From Candidatus Beckwithbacteria bacterium (GTDB lineage: Bacteria > Patescibacteriota > Microgenomatia > UBA1400 > CG1-02-47-37), in assembly GCA_026397255.1 (NCBI GenBank), contig JAPLVF010000013.1, positions 150,062 through 214,061 on the forward strand: a stretch of 64,000 nucleotides of DNA. Reading direction: 5' to 3'. This document shows positions 17,733 through 42,836 of this stretch, piece after piece (the stretch's first letter is position 1; each line of letters begins with the position of its first letter). A program made the translations under genes and the position numbers. The notes beneath the pieces were generated by a model, which saw only the letters and a program-made list of their open reading frames with translations, ran no database searches and was not told the origin of the DNA.

Positions 17733-19100
17733 ATGAAGATTAAGCTGCCTGAATTGGTGGTTAAAGTTTTGGAAACTTTGGAAAAGGCCGGATTTGAAGC
17801 TTATGTGGTGGGTGGAGCAGTCAGGGATATCTTAACAGAAACGCCGGTTAAAGATTGGGATTTCACTAGCGATGCTAACCCAGAAGAAATTGTGAAACTA
17901 TTTAAAGAGGCTTTCTATGATAATCGATTTGGAACCGTGGGTGTGGCGGCTAAACATCTGGAAGAACAATTCGGATTAAAAAGTAAGACTGACAGAGTCT
18001 ATGAAATAACCACTTTCAGAAGCGAATCGGGATATTCAGACAGACGGCGGCCGGATAAGGTGGCGTGGGGAAAAAGCTTAAAAGAAGATTTAAAAAGAAG
18101 GGATTTTACTATTAATGCCATGAGTTTTAATAAAAATCTAAAATTGATCGATCCGTTTGAGGGAGAAAAAGATTTAACCAATAAACTAATTAGAGCGGTT
18201 GGCGACCCGAATAAAAGATTTCAAGAAGACGCTTTAAGAATGATGCGGGCAATCAGAATTGCCAGCCAATTAGGTTTTAGCATAGAAATAAAAACCCTGG
18301 CAGCGATTAGTAAAAACAGCACTTTAATTAAACAAATCAGCGCCGAAAGAGTAAGGGATGAATTATTAAAAATTCTGGGCTCGAAATATCCAAAAGACGG
18401 AATTTTATTATTATTCAGCACGGGAATTTTAAAATATATTTTGCCGGAATTAATCGAGACGCGGGAAATCGAACAGGCGGGACACCACACTAAAGATGTT
18501 TGGAATCACAGTTTGGATAGTTTAGCCGCCTCTCCCTCCCCCAACCCGATTATCCGCTTAGCCACTTTACTTCATGATATCGGCAAACCGATGGTTAAGG
18601 CAAGCCGGGAAGGTAAAGAAATTACTTTTTACAACCACGAGGTCGCCGGGGCCAGAATGACGAAACTTATCAGCCGCCGTTTGCGCTTATCAAAAAAAGA
18701 CAGCGACTTGCTATGGTTATTGGTCCGCTGGCATATGTTCGCTTATGAACCGAAAATGACTGATAAAGCTATCAGAAGATTTATCCGCCGGATCGGCAAA
18801 GAAAATATTAATAATATGATAATGCTCCGGGTTGGCGACCGCATTGGCGGCGGAAGCAAGGCGACTTCGTGGCGGCTACGCGAATTACAGGAAAGGATTG
18901 AGCAGGTATTGTATACGCCGATGCAAATTACTGACTTAAAAGTTAACGGTAAAGATGTAATGGACACTTTAAATATTCCAAGCGGACCGAAAGTCGGCCA
19001 AATTTTGAAAAAAATATTTGATGAAGTAATGGAAGACGCCACCAAAAACGACCGGGAGTATTTGTTAAAGAGAATTAAAGAAATACAAACTCATACTTGA
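17733..19100 (+). CDS. cca: CCA-adding tRNA nucleotidyltransferase with HD domain
   Basis: GGAVRDIL...DWDF polymerase-beta head and the HD motif LLHDIGKP. 455 aa. Confidence 0.85.
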   Translation: MKIKLPELVVKVLETLEKAGFEAYVVGGAVRDILTETPVKDWDFTSDANPEEIVKLFKEAFYDNRFGTVGVAAKHLEEQFGLKSKTDRVYEITTFRSESGYSDRRRPDKVAWGKSLKEDLKRRDFTINAMSFNKNLKLIDPFEGEKDLTNKLIRAVGDPNKRFQEDALRMMRAIRIASQLGFSIEIKTLAAISKNSTLIKQISAERVRDELLKILGSKYPKDGILLLFSTGILKYILPELIETREIEQAGHHTKDVWNHSLDSLAASPSPNPIIRLATLLHDIGKPMVKASREGKEITFYNHEVAGARMTKLISRRLRLSKKDSDLLWLLVRWHMFAYEPKMTDKAIRRFIRRIGKENINNMIMLRVGDRIGGGSKATSWRLRELQERIEQVLYTPMQITDLKVNGKDVMDTLNIPSGPKVGQILKKIFDEVMEDATKNDREYLLKRIKEIQTHT

Positions 19101-37296: not shown

Positions 37297-38802
37297 CTAG
37301 TTGGCAATTGCCTCTGCTCTGCTTTCCCGAATCACGTTGACTTTAATTTGACCGGGGAAATTCTTGACTTCGTCTTTAATTTTATCTCTTATGTCGCTCG
37401 CTAACTTAACACTTTGATCGTCGGTAAGCACTTCCGGTTTAACAATGACCCGGACTTCCCGACCGGCTTGAATCGCATAGGCGGATTCAACCCCTTCGAA
37501 CGATTTAGCAATATCTTCCAACTGCGTCATCCGTTTTAAGTAACCCTCATGGTCAGCATAACGGGCGCCGGGACGAGAACCGGAAATGGCGTCGGAAATA
37601 TATACCAGCATTGATTCAACCGAGGAAAACGGCTTATCTTCATGGTGTTCGGCGACACAGTCGAGCACCGCTTGGGGAATATGATGGGTTTTTAAAAATT
37701 TAACTGCCAGCTCAACGTGAGTGCCTTCCTCTTCGTCGATGACTTTGCCGATATCGTGCAGTAAACAACCTAGACGAACAATATTGGGATCAGCTCCGGT
37801 TTCGTAGGCCAATTTCAGGCCAATCTGGGTTTCCTCTAAAGTGTGAGTAATCATGTTTTGACCGTAAGAAAAGCGGTACTTAAACCGACCGAGCATATCA
37901 ATAATTTCGATGGGTAAGTTAAAAACCTTAACCGCGTGGCAAAGTTTTTCACCCTCAGTCCGCATAATCCGCTCAATATCTTTTTGGGTGTGAGCGACAA
38001 TTTCTTCAATGCGCGCCGGCTGAACCCGACCATCGGCAATCAATTTTTCCAAAGCGACCCGGGCAATTTCCCGCCTAACCGGATCAAAACAGGATAAACG
38101 GATCACACCAACCTCATCTAAATCAACTTCGACGCCGCTGACTTTTTCAAAAGTGCGGATGTTGCGACCTTCGCGGCCAATCACCCTGCCTTTAATGTCT
38201 TCATCGGTAACTTTGACTAAAGAAACGGTGTATTCGGCCACATAATCGGTGGCCGCATGACGCATAGACTCAATCAGAATTTCCCGGGCTTTGTCTTCGG
38301 CTTCAGCTTTGGCCTGACTCTCAGACTCACGAATAATATCGGCGATTTCCCGGGTCATCCGGCGCTGATATAACTTCAAAATTAAATCGTGGGCTTCGGT
38401 TTGATTTAATTTAGCCACTCTTTCTAATTTTTCCAGCTGCTGTTTTTTGACTTCCTCGATTTTTTTCAACTGTTCCTGAAGATGTCTTTCATGGCCGGTA
38501 ACACTTTTTTCCCGTTGTTCGACAGCGCCAAGACGATGATCAACTTCCGCCAACTGGTGGACGGATTTTTCTCTTGAAGCCTGGGCTTCATTAATAATTT
38601 TTTGGGCAGAGGCATCGGCTTGTTTTTTAATTTCAAAAGCTTGATCTTTAGCTTCAATAATGAGCTCTCTGGCTTTAGCCTCTGCAGCCGATAGGTCGAC
38701 CGGAGGAACAATTTTTTTTCGTCCAAAGGACGACCGGCCTGTGGCCGGGGTTAGGATGGCTTTACCTTTAATAATTTGAGAAAAACGTTTAAAAAACGAC
38801 AT
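37297..38802 (-). CDS. rny: Ribonuclease Y
   Basis: Coiled-coil N-terminal region, KH domain (VIGREGRNIRTFEKVSGVEV) and HD domain (LLHDIGKV). Confidence 0.9.
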   Translation of the reverse strand: MSFFKRFSQIIKGKAILTPATGRSSFGRKKIVPPVDLSAAEAKARELIIEAKDQAFEIKKQADASAQKIINEAQASREKSVHQLAEVDHRLGAVEQREKSVTGHERHLQEQLKKIEEVKKQQLEKLERVAKLNQTEAHDLILKLYQRRMTREIADIIRESESQAKAEAEDKAREILIESMRHAATDYVAEYTVSLVKVTDEDIKGRVIGREGRNIRTFEKVSGVEVDLDEVGVIRLSCFDPVRREIARVALEKLIADGRVQPARIEEIVAHTQKDIERIMRTEGEKLCHAVKVFNLPIEIIDMLGRFKYRFSYGQNMITHTLEETQIGLKLAYETGADPNIVRLGCLLHDIGKVIDEEEGTHVELAVKFLKTHHIPQAVLDCVAEHHEDKPFSSVESMLVYISDAISGSRPGARYADHEGYLKRMTQLEDIAKSFEGVESAYAIQAGREVRVIVKPEVLTDDQSVKLASDIRDKIKDEVKNFPGQIKVNVIRESRAEAIAN

Positions 38803-38929: not shown

Positions 38930-39379
38930 TTACTCGTCGGCGGCCAAGGCGTCAATAACTCGGTAAGAAAAACCACGACTCAACCGTTTATTTGAAGGGA
39001 GTGATTTGGCCAACTGCAACTCGTCTTCATAAGATAATAAAACATCATCGATAATATCCTGACTAACGCCCTTTTGGGATAATTCTTGTTTTAAAGCAAT
39101 GTTGCCGCGAGGCCGAAACTTAATTCTTTGATCCACCCACCACTTAGCAAACTGGAAATCATCTAACCGTCCCTCATTAATAAAATGGTCAACTACTTGA
39201 TTGATGGTAATCTGATCGGCGCCGCTTCTTTTAAGTTTAGTGGTAAATTCGGCGATACTTTGAGGACGGTAAGATAAGAGATTTAAGCCCCGATTAATCA
39301 GTTTTTGGCGGACGGCCGCGGCGGTGTTTTTCATTAGAATCAACTCCTTCTTTAACGCGTTTCCAAATTTCCGTCTCAA
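38930..39379 (-). CDS. recX: Regulatory protein RecX
   Basis: Three-helix repeat protein immediately downstream of recA. The start may be Met16 (MKNTAAAV), which reduces the overlap with recA. Confidence 0.65.
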
Positions 39380-40334
39380 TAATTTTGGTTAATTTGGTAT
39401 TTTCGGTTAGGAACAAACGGACAGATTCCTTGCCCTGACCTAGAACTTCGTTGCCATATTTATAAAAACTGCCGGATTTAACAATGATGCCGTAGTCGAC
39501 GGCTAAATCGATCAGGCCGCCTATTTTAGAAATCCCACCGACATTTAAGATATCCAGTTCTGCCTGGCGAAACGGCGGGGCAACTTTATTTTTAACGACT
39601 TTAATCCGGTGGCGGGAACCAATAATCGTTTCGCCGTCCTGAATATTGGCAATCTTGCGGCAATCCAAACGGATGGAAGAATAAAATTTTAAGGCTTTAC
39701 CGCCGGACGTCGTTTCCGGATTGCCGAACATGACGCCGATTTTCATCCGGATCTGGTTGGTAAAAATAATCACGGCTTTGGATTTGGCAATGGCGCTGGT
39801 CAACTTACGCATAGCCTGACTCATCAACCGCGCCTGCATCCCCATAGTGGAATCACCCATCTCCCATTCAATTTCGGCTTTAGGCACAAGGGCAGCAACT
39901 GAATCAATACAGATAACATCAATGGCGCCGGAGCGAATTAAGGTCTCGGCAATTTCCAGGGCTTGCTCGCCCGTATCCGGCTGGGAAATCAATAAGTCGT
40001 CCAATTTGACACCAATAGACTGGGCGCGTTGAGGATCAAGAGCATGTTCGGCATCAATAAAGGCAGCCGTGCCGCCGGCTTTCTGGGCTTCGGCAATAAC
40101 ATGAAGACAAATGGTGGTTTTACCGGAAGCCTCCGGACCGAAAATTTCACTGATCCGACCGCGGGGCAAACCGCCAACACCCAAAGCAATATCTAAGGCG
40201 ATGGAACCGGTAGAAATGGAGGCGACCTCCTGATGTTTTTTATCGCCCAATTTCATAATCGCGCCGGCGCCGTACTGCTTTTCAATCTGCTCCATTGCCA
40301 CTTTAATTGCCTGAAGTTTGGGATCGGTAGTCAT
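39294..40334 (-). CDS. recA: Recombinase RecA
   Basis: GPEASGKTT Walker A plus the L1/L2 regions. The start is placed at [22 protein letters not shown]; the ORF track begins 5 codons earlier. Confidence 0.95.
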
Positions 40335-40362
40335 AAAACCATTAAACAAAGATTTACCGAAA

Positions 40363-40391
40363 CTGTCAAGCCGAATTTTATGTGATAAAAT
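40363..40391 (+). promoter_or_regulatory. Candidate promoter for tRNA-Pro (-35 ctgtca, 17-bp spacer, extended -10 tgaTAAAAT)
   Basis: The spacing places the transcription start at about 40398-40401, which is the tRNA 5' end. Confidence 0.4.
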
Positions 40392-40400
40392 TCAGGAGAA

Positions 40401-40474
40401 CGGGGATTAGTTTAACGGTAGAATGCGCGCATGGGGTGCGCGTGGCGACAGTTCAATTCTGTCATCCCCGACCA
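40401..40474 (+). tRNA. tRNA-Pro (anticodon GGG), 3' CCA encoded
   Basis: Manual fold: acceptor CGGGGAU/AUCCCCG; D-arm GUUU-AACGGUA-GAAU; anticodon arm CGCGC-AUGGGGU-GCGCG (U33, GGG, G37); variable UGGC; T-arm GACAG-UUCAAUU-CUGUC; discriminator A; then CCA. Confidence 0.7.
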
Positions 40475-42124
40475 ATGAAAAAAATATTAATCAGTTTATT
40501 GATTTGGTTATTATTTCCGGTAAGTTCAGTTTTAGCCGCAGATTATACAGTTGATAACTTTAAAAGCCTGATTGAAATTAACCAGGACACTTCCTTAACC
40601 GTCACGGAAACAATTGAGGCGAATTTTAATGTGGCTAAACACGGAATTTTTCGGATTATTCCGGTGATTTATTCCGCTAACGGCCGGACGATTAACGGTG
40701 AATTTAAGTTGCTGTCGATAAATGCTCCCTACTCAAGCAGCCGATTCAACCAAAGTATCAAACTGCAAATCGGTGATCCTAATAAAACGATTATCGGCAA
40801 ACAAACCTACGTGATTAAATACCAGCTTAATAATATTCTCCAAAGATACCCTGAGCATGACGAACTCTATTGGAACGTGACCGGGCATGAATGGGATACA
40901 ACTATTGCCACGGCCTCAGCCGAAGTAATTTCGCCGTTTGCACCGATTATTAAAAGACAGGATTATAACGAAGGCGAACTGACGATTGCCGTGGCTTTGG
41001 ATAAAAACAGCCAATTGATTTGGCCGACGAAAACTCAAATGGCAGCAAAAACTACAATCAATAACTGGGGCTATCCGGTCGCCCTGCTGCCGGTCTTAGT
41101 GATGTTTGGGTTTTGGCTGAAAAAAGGCCGGGATAAACGCTACACAACCGATAATTTGTATGTAAAGGGTCAAAAAACTAAGACTGTGGCAATATTTGAA
41201 CACAAATTTTTACCCAGTGTTTACTCGCCGATTGACAACCTGACGCCGAGTGAAGCCGGGACAATTTTAGATCAGAAAGTGGATACCAAAGATGTGGTGG
41301 CAGAAATAATTGAACTGGGGCGGTTGGGATTTTTGACGATTAAAAGAACGGAAGTGAAAAAATTCCTGTATAAAAACACTGATTATGTTTTGACCAAACA
41401 AAATAAAGACACGAAAAATTTAAGAAATTACCAAAAATATTTATTGGAAAAGATTTTTGGTAACAAGCAAACAGTCAAATTATCAGAAATGAAAAATAGT
41501 TTTTACCAGTATTTGGAAGAATTCAGGAAAAAAGTGAACCAGTATTTGGCCGACGAAAAAATCTTTGACGGCAACCCCAAACAGGTAAAAACTAAGTGGA
41601 CCGGTATTGGTTTTCTGATGATGGCCGGCGGGCTGGTAGGGGTAATAAATTTTGCCAGTTTAACGGCTAATTCCGGACCAATTGGCATACTGGCTTTAAC
41701 TCTTATCCCTTTAATCATGCTCGTGAAAAATATGCCGGCCAGAACCGCCTGGGGATACTCACTGTTACGACAAATTGAAGGCTTAAAGTGGTATTTAGGT
41801 AAAGGGAAATGGCGGGAAGAAATTGCCGAGAAAAACTTGTTTTTAGGCGATATGCTGCCTTTAGCAATTGCTTTGGGAGTAGTCAATCAGCTGGCTAAGG
41901 ATATGGCCGGCTTGGGAATTCCGCCGCCTAGTTATTTGCAGGGTTTTAGCGTGGTGAATTTTAATTCCCAGTTAAATCATTTAACTAATAACAGCACTGC
42001 GGCAATTATCAGCTCGCCGAGCGGCTCAAAATGGAGCGGTTCGTCTTCCTGGTCAGGCGGTTCCGGTTTTTCCGGCGGTTCATCAGGCGGTGGTTTCGGC
42101 GGCGGCGGCGGGGGTAGTTGGTAA
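40475..42124 (+). CDS. DUF2207-family membrane protein with a C-terminal Gly/Ser-rich tail
   Basis: Signal peptide MKKILISLLIWLLFPVSSVLA, a DUF2207-like N-domain (YTVDNFKSLIEINQDTSLTVTETIEANF...HGIFRIIP), TM helices and a GGSSGGGFGGGGGGSW tail. The ATG follows the tRNA CCA directly. Confidence 0.6.
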   Translation: MKKILISLLIWLLFPVSSVLAADYTVDNFKSLIEINQDTSLTVTETIEANFNVAKHGIFRIIPVIYSANGRTINGEFKLLSINAPYSSSRFNQSIKLQIGDPNKTIIGKQTYVIKYQLNNILQRYPEHDELYWNVTGHEWDTTIATASAEVISPFAPIIKRQDYNEGELTIAVALDKNSQLIWPTKTQMAAKTTINNWGYPVALLPVLVMFGFWLKKGRDKRYTTDNLYVKGQKTKTVAIFEHKFLPSVYSPIDNLTPSEAGTILDQKVDTKDVVAEIIELGRLGFLTIKRTEVKKFLYKNTDYVLTKQNKDTKNLRNYQKYLLEKIFGNKQTVKLSEMKNSFYQYLEEFRKKVNQYLADEKIFDGNPKQVKTKWTGIGFLMMAGGLVGVINFASLTANSGPIGILALTLIPLIMLVKNMPARTAWGYSLLRQIEGLKWYLGKGKWREEIAEKNLFLGDMLPLAIALGVVNQLAKDMAGLGIPPPSYLQGFSVVNFNSQLNHLTNNSTAAIISSPSGSKWSGSSSWSGGSGFSGGSSGGGFGGGGGGSW

Positions 42125-42137
42125 GGCGTAATCTTGT

Positions 42138-42836
42138 TTAGGCTTTAATTGTCCAGTCGCCACCGGTTTCGGGTTTCTCAAAAACTCTAAGGGTGGCTGT
42201 CTGCCATTGGTCGTTGTCCTGAACAACCATGGCTAAAGTCAAAGTATTGATTTTTCTCCTTTGATCGTAGCCGTAGACCACATCAAGATATTGATTTAGG
42301 GTTGACTTTAATTTGCCGTCTCTTAACTGAGAAAAATTGTATTCAATTACGCTGGTTTTACCAAACAAGACAACGTCTCCAGGTTGACAAACATTGGGAT
42401 TATATTCTGAAAGTTCAGGTAAATCATTAAACTGTTTTTCTTCAAAAAGATTGGCCAGAGTCATTATCGCATTCTTGCCAAGACCGCTTTCTCCGCGAAA
42501 GAGGACGGCATCAGTTTTATCTGCCTTAATCCAGTTAAGAGCATAAGCGTTTGTACTTATAGTTGTTTCAGCGTTGTCCACCGCGGCAAATATCCCCGGA
42601 GAAGTGCCTATTTTAGTCTGACAAATACATTTTGCATCAGCGCCGTTGACAACAATCAGGTTGTCCGGATCATCCGGGGTTTCGGGTGTTGGTGTGGGTT
42701 TTAGCGGCGGGGCTTCCGTAGATGGCGGTTTTAGACCACAGGCTGTTAAAAGTCGGCTTACGACTACTGCCCCGACTATTGCCCCACCTGCTTTTAAGGC
42801 ATCTCGGCGAGATAGTGGTTTTGGTTCTTGAACCAT
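42138..42836 (-). CDS. Hypothetical Tat-signal lipoprotein
   Basis: Twin-arginine motif SRRDALKAGGAIVGAVV, lipobox LTAC and a Pro/Thr-rich linker. No recognised catalytic domain. Confidence 0.4.
   Translation of the reverse strand: MVQEPKPLSRRDALKAGGAIVGAVVVSRLLTACGLKPPSTEAPPLKPTPTPETPDDPDNLIVVNGADAKCICQTKIGTSPGIFAAVDNAETTISTNAYALNWIKADKTDAVLFRGESGLGKNAIMTLANLFEEKQFNDLPELSEYNPNVCQPGDVVLFGKTSVIEYNFSQLRDGKLKSTLNQYLDVVYGYDQRRKINTLTLAMVVQDNDQWQTATLRVFEKPETGGDWTIKA

What the first reader, a model, noticed from the sequence alone, without database searches (positions are those of the whole stretch)
40363..40480. tRNA-Pro(GGG) with encoded CCA directly fused to the start codon of a DUF2207 membrane-protein gene
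The tRNA ends ...AUCCCCG-A-CCA at 40474, and the DUF2207 ORF starts ATG at 40475 (MKKILISLL... signal peptide). There is no untranslated leader or Shine-Dalgarno spacing. A sigma-70-like promoter sits just upstream of the tRNA. The protein gene must be co-transcribed with the tRNA, and it must be translated either leaderless after tRNA 3' processing or with an RBS embedded in the tRNA T-arm/acceptor. tRNA-mRNA fusions of this kind are rarely annotated.
Basis: seen in the sequence. Interest (0 to 1): 0.5.

Follow-up and report, generated by a model that had tools for sequence, protein, structure and literature searches.

The report
tRNA-Pro gene abutting a start codon
In an uncultured Candidatus Beckwithbacteria (CPR) bacterium, a genuine proline tRNA gene ends on the base before a membrane-protein gene starts, so the two are probably made as one RNA and cut apart, as in mitochondria; this exact junction is a lineage-specific deletion product and its expression is untested.

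Summary
tRNA-Pro(GGG) lies at 40401-40474, including an encoded CCA. The ATG at 40475 is the true start of a 549-aa DUF2207 protein; homologues begin with the same MKK signal peptide, and GenBank already annotates this start. No Shine-Dalgarno motif or promoter-like site lies between or inside the two genes. An invariant G-N-TAAAAT box sits 9-16 nt upstream of the tRNA in eight aligned lineages.

The exact junction is not conserved. DUF2207 orthologues have a 27-nt hairpin spacer, an intervening ceramidase gene, or no tRNA. The same tRNA body in a relative lacks CCA, so the CCA may be incidental.

The theme does recur. In other Microgenomates, tRNA-Pro(GGG) is followed by the yecM start codon 2 or 3 nt after the discriminator.

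In this window, 13 of 65 gene starts have a -10 box ending 5-10 nt before the ATG (p=3.5e-7). Leaderless or near-leaderless mRNAs are therefore predicted to be common here.

Best reading: one transcript is cut at the tRNA 3' end and releases a 0-3-nt-leader mRNA. Co-transcription, cleavage and translation are all inferred. This is a new variant of known tRNA-mRNA operons and of mitochondrial tRNA punctuation. Interest is moderate.

The parts
40363..40391 (+). Promoter-like site for the tRNA. It has a -35-like CTGTCA at 40363-40368, 17 nt of spacer, and an extended -10 TG-A-TAAAAT at 40383-40391. It ends 9 nt before the tRNA 5' end.
   Evidence: Found by the consensus scan. G-N-TAAAAT is invariant in eight aligned lineages, and TGnTAAAAT lies 9-16 nt before the tRNA in 11 of 16 loci examined. 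The CTGTCAAG box is also the reverse complement of a perfect TTGACA on the recA strand, so which gene uses it as a -35 element is ambiguous.
40401..40471 (+). Body of tRNA-Pro(GGG) through discriminator A73. It has a C1-G72 pair, a 7-bp acceptor stem, anticodon loop AUGGGGU and T-loop TTCAATT.
   Evidence: ARAGORN; Rfam RF00005 at 56.8 bits over the full model length; identical sequence in relatives L004, L005 and L018.
40472..40474 (+). Genomically encoded CCA, directly followed by the ATG.
   Evidence: Read from the sequence. CCA is encoded in only 4 of about 13 related tRNA-Pro(GGG) lineages. The base after the discriminator is always C.
40475..42124 (+). DUF2207 membrane-protein gene (549 aa). 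It has an N-terminal signal peptide MKKILISLLIWLLFPVSSVLA|ADY and a Gly-rich C-terminal tail. The stop codon TAA is at 42122-42124.
   Evidence: Pfam PF09972 and PF20990; N-termini of homologues; identical 549-aa NCBI protein; stop codon read.
39294..40334 (-). Divergent recA gene. On its strand, TTGACA-17-TTTAAT ends 6 nt before its ATG. This is the conserved synteny anchor recA<- ->tRNA-Pro(GGG).
   Evidence: Pfam RecA at 438.9 bits; minus-strand sequence; same neighbourhood in L004, L006, L022, L031 and L033.
17733..19100 (+). CCA-adding tRNA nucleotidyltransferase. It is a trans-acting factor that could rebuild CCA if the tRNA were cut after the discriminator.
   Evidence: NCBIfam NF009814 at 302.6 bits, above the cut-off of 290; GGAVRD motif; TATAAT ends 8 nt before its ATG.
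37297..38802 (-). RNase Y, the only endoribonuclease gene recognised in the window and a candidate alternative processing enzyme.
   Evidence: NCBIfam TIGR03319 at 487.3 bits, above the cut-off of 454.

Best explanation
The tRNA-Pro(GGG) gene and the DUF2207 gene form one transcription unit, driven by the conserved extended -10 promoter (TGATAAAAT) that ends 9 nt upstream of the tRNA. RNase P trims the very short 5' leader. An endonuclease acting at the tRNA 3' end separates the two RNAs. This would be an RNase Z-type enzyme cutting either after discriminator A73 (40471|40472) or after the encoded CCA (40474|40475). The released mRNA starts with 5'-P-CCAAUG or 5'-P-AUG. It is translated by the Shine-Dalgarno-independent leaderless or near-leaderless route that this genome appears to use for about one gene in five. 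If the cut falls after A73, the CCA-adding enzyme encoded at 17733-19100 restores the tRNA 3' end.

The arrangement arose when a roughly 27-nt AU-rich hairpin plus U-tract spacer was deleted, together with the ceramidase gene that follows the tRNA in most close relatives.

Shown here: the tRNA is real; the start codon is real; there is no SD and no internal promoter-like site; the upstream promoter box is conserved; the genome carries a leaderless signature; and 2-3-nt tRNA-ATG junctions recur in related lineages.

Inferred: co-transcription, the cleavage site and the enzyme, and translation of the processed mRNA.
For: - **tRNA and start codon.** Both are verified.
- **Promoter.** G-N-TAAAAT is invariant upstream of tRNA-Pro(GGG) in eight aligned lineages, and TGnTAAAAT lies 9-16 nt before the tRNA in 11 of 16 loci examined.
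- **No separate expression signals.** There are 0 nt between the genes. No promoter-like site lies within 40392-40475. No -10-like hexamer ends 0-39 nt before the ATG, and there is no SD.
- **Leaderless signature.** 13 of 65 gene starts in the window have a -10-like box ending 5-10 nt before the ATG, against 3.5% of other ATGs (binomial p=3.5e-7). The spacing peaks at 6 nt and 10 nt. This implies native 5' ends at the AUG or about 3 nt before it, which matches the two possible cleavage products.
- **RNA fold.** The tRNA folds as an independent module and CCAAUGAAAAAAA stays single-stranded.
- **Recurrence.** yecM starts 3 nt after the discriminator in Amesbacteria (L008, L014, L017, L019) and 2 nt after it in L022-L025, which carry a diverged tRNA-Pro(GGG). 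A HIT-family gene starts 10 nt after it in L026-L029. The yecM start is validated by a Pfam PF06185 match from residue 3 and by 156-aa full-coverage homologues.
- **Trans factor.** A CCA-adding enzyme is present in the window.
- **Precedent.** RNase Z cuts directly after the discriminator. The Thermotoga maritima enzyme cuts just after an encoded CCA (PMC7479834, PMC1540738).
Against: - There are no RNA data of any kind.
- The junction occurs in a single MAG contig. The closest DUF2207 orthologues (64-78% identity) do not share it.
- CC or CCA directly after the discriminator suppresses many RNase Z enzymes (PMC7479834). In that case, maturation would need 3' exonucleases that would consume the mRNA.
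- No RNase Z (HxHxDH) candidate was seen among the 46 ORFs screened across 1-46.8 kb. The rest of the genome is not available to these tools.
- Three of the four Amesbacteria yecM genes abutting the tRNA carry internal deletions or truncations (91, 122 and 135 aa instead of 156). An abutting position may therefore not guarantee good expression.
- A processed 5'-monophosphate mRNA may be unstable.
Confidence: 0.5

Rival explanations
1. The genes are co-transcribed, but translation does not depend on precise tRNA excision. Ribosomes would load internally on the A/U-rich, unstructured start region (AUGAAAAAAAUAUUAAU) of unprocessed or differently cleaved transcripts by an SD-independent, S1-type route. 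tRNA maturation and mRNA translation would then be competing fates of each transcript.
For: Most genes in the window have neither an SD nor a leaderless-type -10 box; about 12 of 66 have an SD and 13 of 65 have the box. SD-independent internal initiation must therefore be common here. Relatives with 10-29-nt spacers (L004, L006, L026, L030) also lack an SD before the downstream ATG. The start region is predicted to be single-stranded.
Against: The start codon sits on the base next to a stable 7-bp G+C-rich acceptor stem. The roughly 15 nt of mRNA that a 30S subunit contacts upstream of the start codon would all lie inside the folded tRNA. This footprint is established knowledge of 30S initiation complexes and was not tested here.
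Confidence: 0.2
2. The junction is a recent, neutral or mildly harmful deletion, or a local assembly error, in one MAG. The DUF2207 gene would then be poorly expressed or on its way to loss, and no special mechanism exists.
For: The protein cluster has a single member and a single contig. Pattern scans of species-representative genomes and of JGI metagenomes found no other copy of this junction. Orthologous loci have a spacer or an intervening gene. Three of the four tRNA-abutting yecM genes in Amesbacteria look degraded.
Against: The ORF is intact over 549 aa, with both Pfam domains and a canonical signal peptide. Both flanks are syntenic with relatives: recA-recX-RNase Y upstream and SNase-SIMPL-Dus downstream, which argues against a chimeric join. 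The 2-nt yecM junction is intact in L022-L025, and its protein cluster was read on 18 contigs. The 2-nt and 3-nt junctions sit beside tRNAs that differ in the acceptor and T stems, so abutment has persisted over substantial divergence.
Confidence: 0.17
3. A separate promoter inside the tRNA gene starts transcription at or just before A40475 and makes a primary leaderless mRNA independent of tRNA transcription.
For: Leaderless promoters are common in this genome. The T-arm contains TTCAAT (40452-40457), which matches TATAAT at 4 of 6 positions.
Against: TTCAAT lacks the critical A at position 2 and ends 17 nt before the ATG, outside the 5-10-nt spacing seen at this genome's leaderless genes. 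No hexamer passing the -10 criteria ends 0-39 nt before the ATG. The promoter scan reports nothing inside the tRNA. The same T-arm sequence is constrained by tRNA function and is present in relatives whose downstream genes lie at 27-57 nt.
Confidence: 0.06

Closest known systems
Mitochondrial tRNA punctuation (animal mtDNA; RNase P and RNase Z/ELAC2 excise tRNAs and leave leaderless mRNAs)
   Same: A tRNA directly abuts the start codon. mRNA with a 0-3-nt leader is proposed to arise from endonucleolytic tRNA excision and to be translated without a Shine-Dalgarno sequence (background in PMC3790967 and PMC5716156).
   Different: This is a free-living-type bacterial genome. It has a single tRNA-mRNA unit with its own promoter rather than a genome-length polycistron. 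CCA is encoded here, whereas mitochondrial tRNA genes generally lack it. Nothing has been shown at the RNA level.
Bacterial mixed tRNA-mRNA operons, e.g. E. coli thrU-tyrU-glyT-thrT-tufB (own knowledge)
   Same: A protein gene is transcribed from a tRNA promoter and separated from the tRNAs by processing.
   Different: tufB keeps a long spacer with its own Shine-Dalgarno site. Here the spacer is 0 nt after CCA and there is no SD.
Primary leaderless mRNAs of Actinobacteria and Deinococcus (e.g. mycobacteria, PMC4633059; Streptomyces, PMC4681348)
   Same: Translation starts from a 5'-terminal AUG. A -10 box lies about 6-7 nt upstream of the start codon, as at 13 of 65 genes in this window.
   Different: In those cases the 5' end is made by transcription initiation and carries a triphosphate. 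Here it would be made by RNA cleavage and carry a monophosphate.
Thermotoga maritima-type RNase Z, which cleaves CCA-containing precursors immediately after A76 (PMC1540738; PMC7479834)
   Same: This enzyme would give a mature tRNA-CCA and a perfect 5'-AUG mRNA in a single cut at 40474|40475.
   Different: No RNase Z gene was identified in the window. Which type, if any, this organism has is unknown. Relatives mostly lack an encoded CCA, which points to the ordinary cut after the discriminator.
tRNA-like processing elements: plant mitochondrial t-elements, Haloferax t-elements used to release crRNAs (PMC4946936), and plant dicistronic tRNA-mRNA transcripts (PMC8166872)
   Same: A tRNA fold serves as a processing signal that defines the end of a neighbouring RNA.
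   Different: Here the element is a full, canonical and presumably functional tRNA, not a tRNA-like remnant.

Membership tests
tRNA (Rfam RF00005), proline isoacceptor GGG | Cloverleaf matching the covariance model above the gathering score | tested here: met
   56.8 bits against a gathering score of 29, model positions 1-71 of 71. ARAGORN calls tRNA-Pro(GGG).
tRNA (Rfam RF00005), proline isoacceptor GGG | Bacterial tRNA-Pro identity features: G35 and G36 in the anticodon, A73 discriminator, C1-G72 pair (own knowledge of E. coli ProRS recognition) | tested here: met
   The sequence reads C1...G72, A73 and anticodon GGG. Aminoacylation itself cannot be tested with these tools.
DUF2207 membrane proteins (Pfam PF09972 and PF20990) | N-terminal and C-terminal DUF2207 domains above the Pfam thresholds | tested here: met
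   87.0 bits (cut-off 24.4) and 95.8 bits (cut-off 33). 665 homologues at E<=0.001.
tRNA-mRNA co-transcription unit | A promoter upstream of the tRNA, with no promoter or terminator between the tRNA and the CDS | tested here: met
   Conserved G-N-TAAAAT box. The spacer is 0 nt. No promoter-like or terminator-like site was called between 40392 and 40650.
tRNA-mRNA co-transcription unit | A transcript that spans the tRNA-CDS junction | not testable with these tools
   This needs RNA-seq or RT-PCR across 40474/40475.
tRNA punctuation (mRNA end defined by tRNA excision) | An mRNA 5'-monophosphate end that coincides with the tRNA 3' processing site | not testable with these tools
   This needs 5'-RACE or differential RNA-seq.
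tRNA punctuation (mRNA end defined by tRNA excision) | Presence of a tRNA 3' endonuclease (RNase Z) in the genome | tested here: inconclusive
   No HxHxDH-motif ORF was found among the 46 ORFs screened across 1-46.8 kb. Only 64 kb of the genome is available. RNase Y and a CCA-adding enzyme are present.
Leaderless mRNA | The organism initiates translation at 5'-terminal AUGs, seen as a genome-wide -10 box at a fixed short distance from start codons | tested here: met
   13 of 65 gene starts against 3.5% of control ATGs, p=3.5e-7, with peaks at 6 and 10 nt. This is an in-silico signature only.
Leaderless mRNA | This particular mRNA begins at or within about 3 nt of its AUG | not testable with these tools
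   Inferred from the geometry of the junction only.

The most novel reading that the evidence does not exclude
Microgenomates (CPR) bacteria may routinely use excision of tRNA-Pro(GGG), and perhaps of other tRNAs, as an mRNA 5'-end maturation step. This would yield translatable mRNAs with 0-3-nt leaders. It would be a bacterial counterpart of mitochondrial tRNA punctuation, enabled by a widespread and so far undescribed reliance on leaderless initiation in this group. The window shows the tightest version of it: CCA|AUG.
Probability: 0.35. Interest if true: 0.65.

Novelty: new variant of a known kind. Interest (0 to 1): 0.45.

Why it matters
If the processed RNA is really translated, this would be a bacterial example of an mRNA whose 5' end is created by tRNA excision. 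That mechanism is known as a defining feature of mitochondrial gene expression.

It would also show that ultra-small CPR genomes can dispense with intergenic expression signals altogether. A 5'-monophosphate leaderless mRNA would then be functional in such cells.

It raises a concrete and testable conflict. An encoded CCA normally blocks RNase Z, so either this organism's enzyme behaves like the Thermotoga one, or tRNA maturation and mRNA survival compete.

There is a practical consequence for annotation. ORFs that stay open through a tRNA mislead gene callers. Here a 580-aa ORF from GTG 40382 can be called instead of the 549-aa protein, and in L026 the HIT gene was called at 185 aa instead of 154 aa.

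If the junction turns out to be only a tolerated deletion, it is a minor curiosity of genome streamlining.

Tried and rejected
- **Downstream start codon.** Rejected. The only nearby in-frame alternative is TTG at codon 9, which has no SD and loses the conserved MKK n-region.
- **Upstream start at GTG 40382 (580-aa ORF).** Rejected. It reads through the tRNA and has no support from homologues.
- **RBS inside the tRNA T-arm or acceptor stem.** Rejected, because no GGAG/GAGG/AGGA-type motif is there.
- **Promoter inside the tRNA.** None was found.
- **Conservation of the exact junction.** Exact-pattern scans for the tRNA 3' end gave 3 loci in GTDB species-representative genomes and 11 in JGI metagenomes. 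None had CCA-ATG-DUF2207.
- **The view that the encoded CCA is purely a by-product of the deletion.** I first held this, then softened it. L011, L012/L015 and L033 also encode CCA, so its origin is undecided.
- **RNase Z in the window.** A motif screen of 46 ORFs found none.
- **Literature on leaderless translation in CPR/Patescibacteria, and on bacterial tRNA punctuation.** Nothing relevant was found.
- **Alternative RNA structure linking the tRNA to the mRNA.** None is predicted.
- **Survey of other tRNA species in this lineage.** Not possible. Every fetched locus contained only tRNA-Pro(GGG).
Full report
**1. The observation**

The window reads ...GTCATCCCCG-A-CCA|ATGAAAAAAATATTA..., with CCA at 40472-40474 and ATG at 40475. 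ARAGORN finds one tRNA in the whole 64 kb: tRNA-Pro(GGG) at 40401..40474. Rfam RF00005 matches 40401..40471 over the full model at 56.8 bits against a gathering score of 29. The cloverleaf is canonical. It has a C1-G72 pair, a 7-bp acceptor stem, anticodon loop AUGGGGU, T-loop UUCAAUU and discriminator A73.

The ORF from ATG 40475 to 42124 (549 aa) hits both DUF2207 Pfam domains. A protein search shows that the organism is a Candidatus Beckwithbacteria MAG (Microgenomates, CPR). NCBI already holds exactly this 549-aa protein, so the abutting start is already annotated.

Nearly all of the top 40 homologues begin M(x)KK followed by a hydrophobic stretch and A-x-A, then the conserved DY..NF motif. 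The abutting ATG is therefore the real start. The 580-aa ORF from GTG 40382 simply reads through the tRNA. No GGAG/GAGG motif precedes the ATG.

**2. The promoter**

The scan finds CTGTCA-17-TAAAAT with a TG extension at 40363..40391, 9 nt before the tRNA. On its own this is no better than chance. However, G-N-TAAAAT is invariant in an alignment of eight lineages, and TGnTAAAAT lies 9-16 nt before the tRNA 5' end in 11 of 16 loci examined.

The -35-like box is the reverse complement of a perfect TTGACA on the recA strand. That TTGACA sits 17 nt from TTTAAT, which ends 6 nt before the recA ATG. Its assignment to one gene or the other is therefore ambiguous. No promoter-like or terminator-like site lies inside the tRNA or at the junction.

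**3. Relatives of the DUF2207 locus**

| Locus | DUF2207 identity | Arrangement |
|---|---|---|
| L004, L005, L018 | 64% | Same RNase Y-recX-recA<- ->tRNA->DUF2207 synteny and an identical tRNA body, but the trailer is CTTTAGATTGATATATCAAGCTATTTT before the ATG: no CCA and 27 nt between discriminator and ATG |
| L006, L001, L035 | 68-78% | A 219-aa ceramidase-family gene lies directly upstream of DUF2207. In L006 and L001 it follows the tRNA after a homologous 27-29-nt spacer. The L035 contig ends inside the ceramidase gene |
| L002, L003 | 68% | No tRNA upstream |
| L007 | 70% | No tRNA in the 65 nt available upstream |

The exact junction is therefore not conserved. The window lineage has lost the spacer, and relative to most close relatives it has also lost the ceramidase gene.

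The spacer contains a conserved AU-rich palindrome, AGATTGATATATCAATCT, usually followed by a T-run. It folds weakly, at -2.4 to -4.9 kcal/mol. It could be a weak terminator or a binding site. Its loss means that every tRNA transcript in this genome must run into DUF2207.

**4. The CCA**

Across about 13 distinct tRNA-Pro(GGG) lineages, the base after the discriminator is always C. CCA is present in only four of them: the window, L011, L012/L015 and L033. The window also encodes a CCA-adding enzyme at 17733..19100 (NF009814, 302.6 bits). The encoded CCA here may be retained or may be a by-product of the deletion. I cannot decide between these.

**5. The theme recurs**

In Amesbacteria contigs L008, L014, L017 and L019, the same tRNA 3' end is followed by CTT|ATG of a YecM-family gene, 3 nt after the discriminator. 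That is the same geometry as in the window. In L022-L025 the tRNA-Pro(GGG) differs in its acceptor, anticodon and T stems, and the junction is A-CT-ATG, 2 nt after the discriminator. The yecM start is validated by a Pfam PF06185 match from residue 3 and by many 155-157-aa homologues with full coverage.

Other lineages have spacers of the following lengths:

| Spacer (nt) | Locus and downstream gene |
|---|---|
| 10 | L026-L029, HIT-family gene |
| 19 | L030, yecM |
| 25 | L033, yecM |
| 28 | L011, DUF2177, with its own TATAAT ending 6 nt before the ATG |
| 51 | L031, yecM |
| 57 | L009, with its own TATTAT |

A same-strand ORF with no room for its own promoter is thus a common state downstream of this tRNA in Microgenomates. 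One caveat applies: three of the four Amesbacteria yecM copies are shortened by deletions or frameshifts.

**6. Translation context**

In the window, 13 of 65 gene starts have a -10-like hexamer ending 5-10 nt before the ATG, against 3.5% of all other ATGs (p=3.5e-7). The spacing peaks at 6 nt and 10 nt. This is the signature of leaderless mRNAs and mRNAs with roughly 3-nt leaders. Only about 12 of 66 starts have an SD motif.

A 5' end at AUG (cut after CCA) or at CCAAUG (cut after A73) would therefore resemble native mRNA 5' ends in this genome. RNA folding shows the tRNA as a separate module and the start region as unpaired.

**7. Mechanism and rivals**

The best-supported model is one transcript from the tRNA promoter, separated at the tRNA 3' end into a tRNA and a (near-)leaderless DUF2207 mRNA. 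RNase Z normally cuts directly after the discriminator and is suppressed by CC or CCA. The Thermotoga maritima enzyme instead cuts just after an encoded CCA (PMC7479834 and PMC1540738). Which applies here is unknown, and no RNase Z candidate lies among the ORFs screened in the window.

The rivals are:
- SD-independent internal initiation on unprocessed RNA;
- a tolerated or artefactual deletion with poor expression;
- a promoter inside the tRNA, which is the least likely.

All RNA-level steps are inferred.

**8. Comparison with known systems and verdict**

The arrangement works like mitochondrial tRNA punctuation. It extends the known bacterial tRNA-mRNA operons, such as the tufB operon, to zero spacing. 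It combines this with leaderless translation as known from Actinobacteria.

Literature searches found no description of leaderless usage in CPR and none of bacterial tRNA punctuation.

I rate it a new variant of a known kind. This exact junction, however, is lineage-specific, already annotated and experimentally untested. Interest is 0.45.

Noticed in passing
window, e.g. starts at 17733(+), 27904(-), 45906(+), 12335(-), 36932(-), 25940(+), 33351(-): About 20% of gene starts (13 of 65) have a TATAAT-like box ending 5-10 nt before the ATG, with peaks at 6 and 10 nt (p=3.5e-7 against other ATGs). SD motifs occur at only about 12 of 66 starts, mostly inside operons. This predicts widespread leaderless or roughly 3-nt-leader mRNAs in this Beckwithbacteria genome. 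I found no literature describing this for CPR.
   Followed up: partly
L006:3324-3347, L004:3976-4000, L001:1144-1166, L009:1666-1683, L013 and L031 (directly after tRNA-Pro): A conserved AU-rich palindrome, AGATTGATATATCAATCT, usually followed by a T-run, lies directly downstream of tRNA-Pro(GGG) in several diverged lineages. It folds weakly (-2.4 to -4.9 kcal/mol). It could be a weak terminator or attenuator, or a protein-binding site. It is absent from the window.
   Followed up: partly
L008:135-410(-), L017, L019, L014; L022:2501-2971: A YecM-family (PF06185) gene starts 2-3 nt after the tRNA-Pro(GGG) discriminator in Amesbacteria and a related lineage. Three of the four Amesbacteria copies carry internal deletions or frameshifts (91, 122 and 135 aa against 156 aa), which suggests decay or hypervariability.
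   Followed up: partly
window 40382-42124(+); L026:1914-2471; L008:135-494(-): The reading frame stays open through the tRNA-Pro gene. ORF finders and metagenome gene callers therefore extend the downstream protein N-terminally across the tRNA: 580 aa against 549 aa here, and 185 aa against 154 aa for the HIT gene in L026. This is a systematic annotation artefact.
   Followed up: yes
window 40335-40368 (- strand): recA is preceded by a perfect TTGACA, 17 nt of spacer, TTTAAT, and then 6 nt to its ATG. This is a possible leaderless recA promoter whose -35 element overlaps the -35-like box assigned to the divergent tRNA promoter.
   Followed up: no
window 42138-42836 (-): This 232-aa ORF converges on the DUF2207 stop codon with a 13-nt gap. 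It has a twin-arginine-like N-terminus (SRRDALKAGGAIVGAVVV) and no Pfam or NCBIfam hit. It is absent from the syntenic position in relatives L001 and L002.
   Followed up: no
downstream of tRNA-Pro(GGG) in L001-L035: The gene immediately downstream of tRNA-Pro(GGG) varies widely between Microgenomates lineages: ceramidase, DUF2207, yecM, HIT, DUF2177, or a cupin-like 126-aa ORF. The recA side is often conserved. This suggests a hotspot of gene turnover next to the tRNA, although no integrase was seen.
   Followed up: partly
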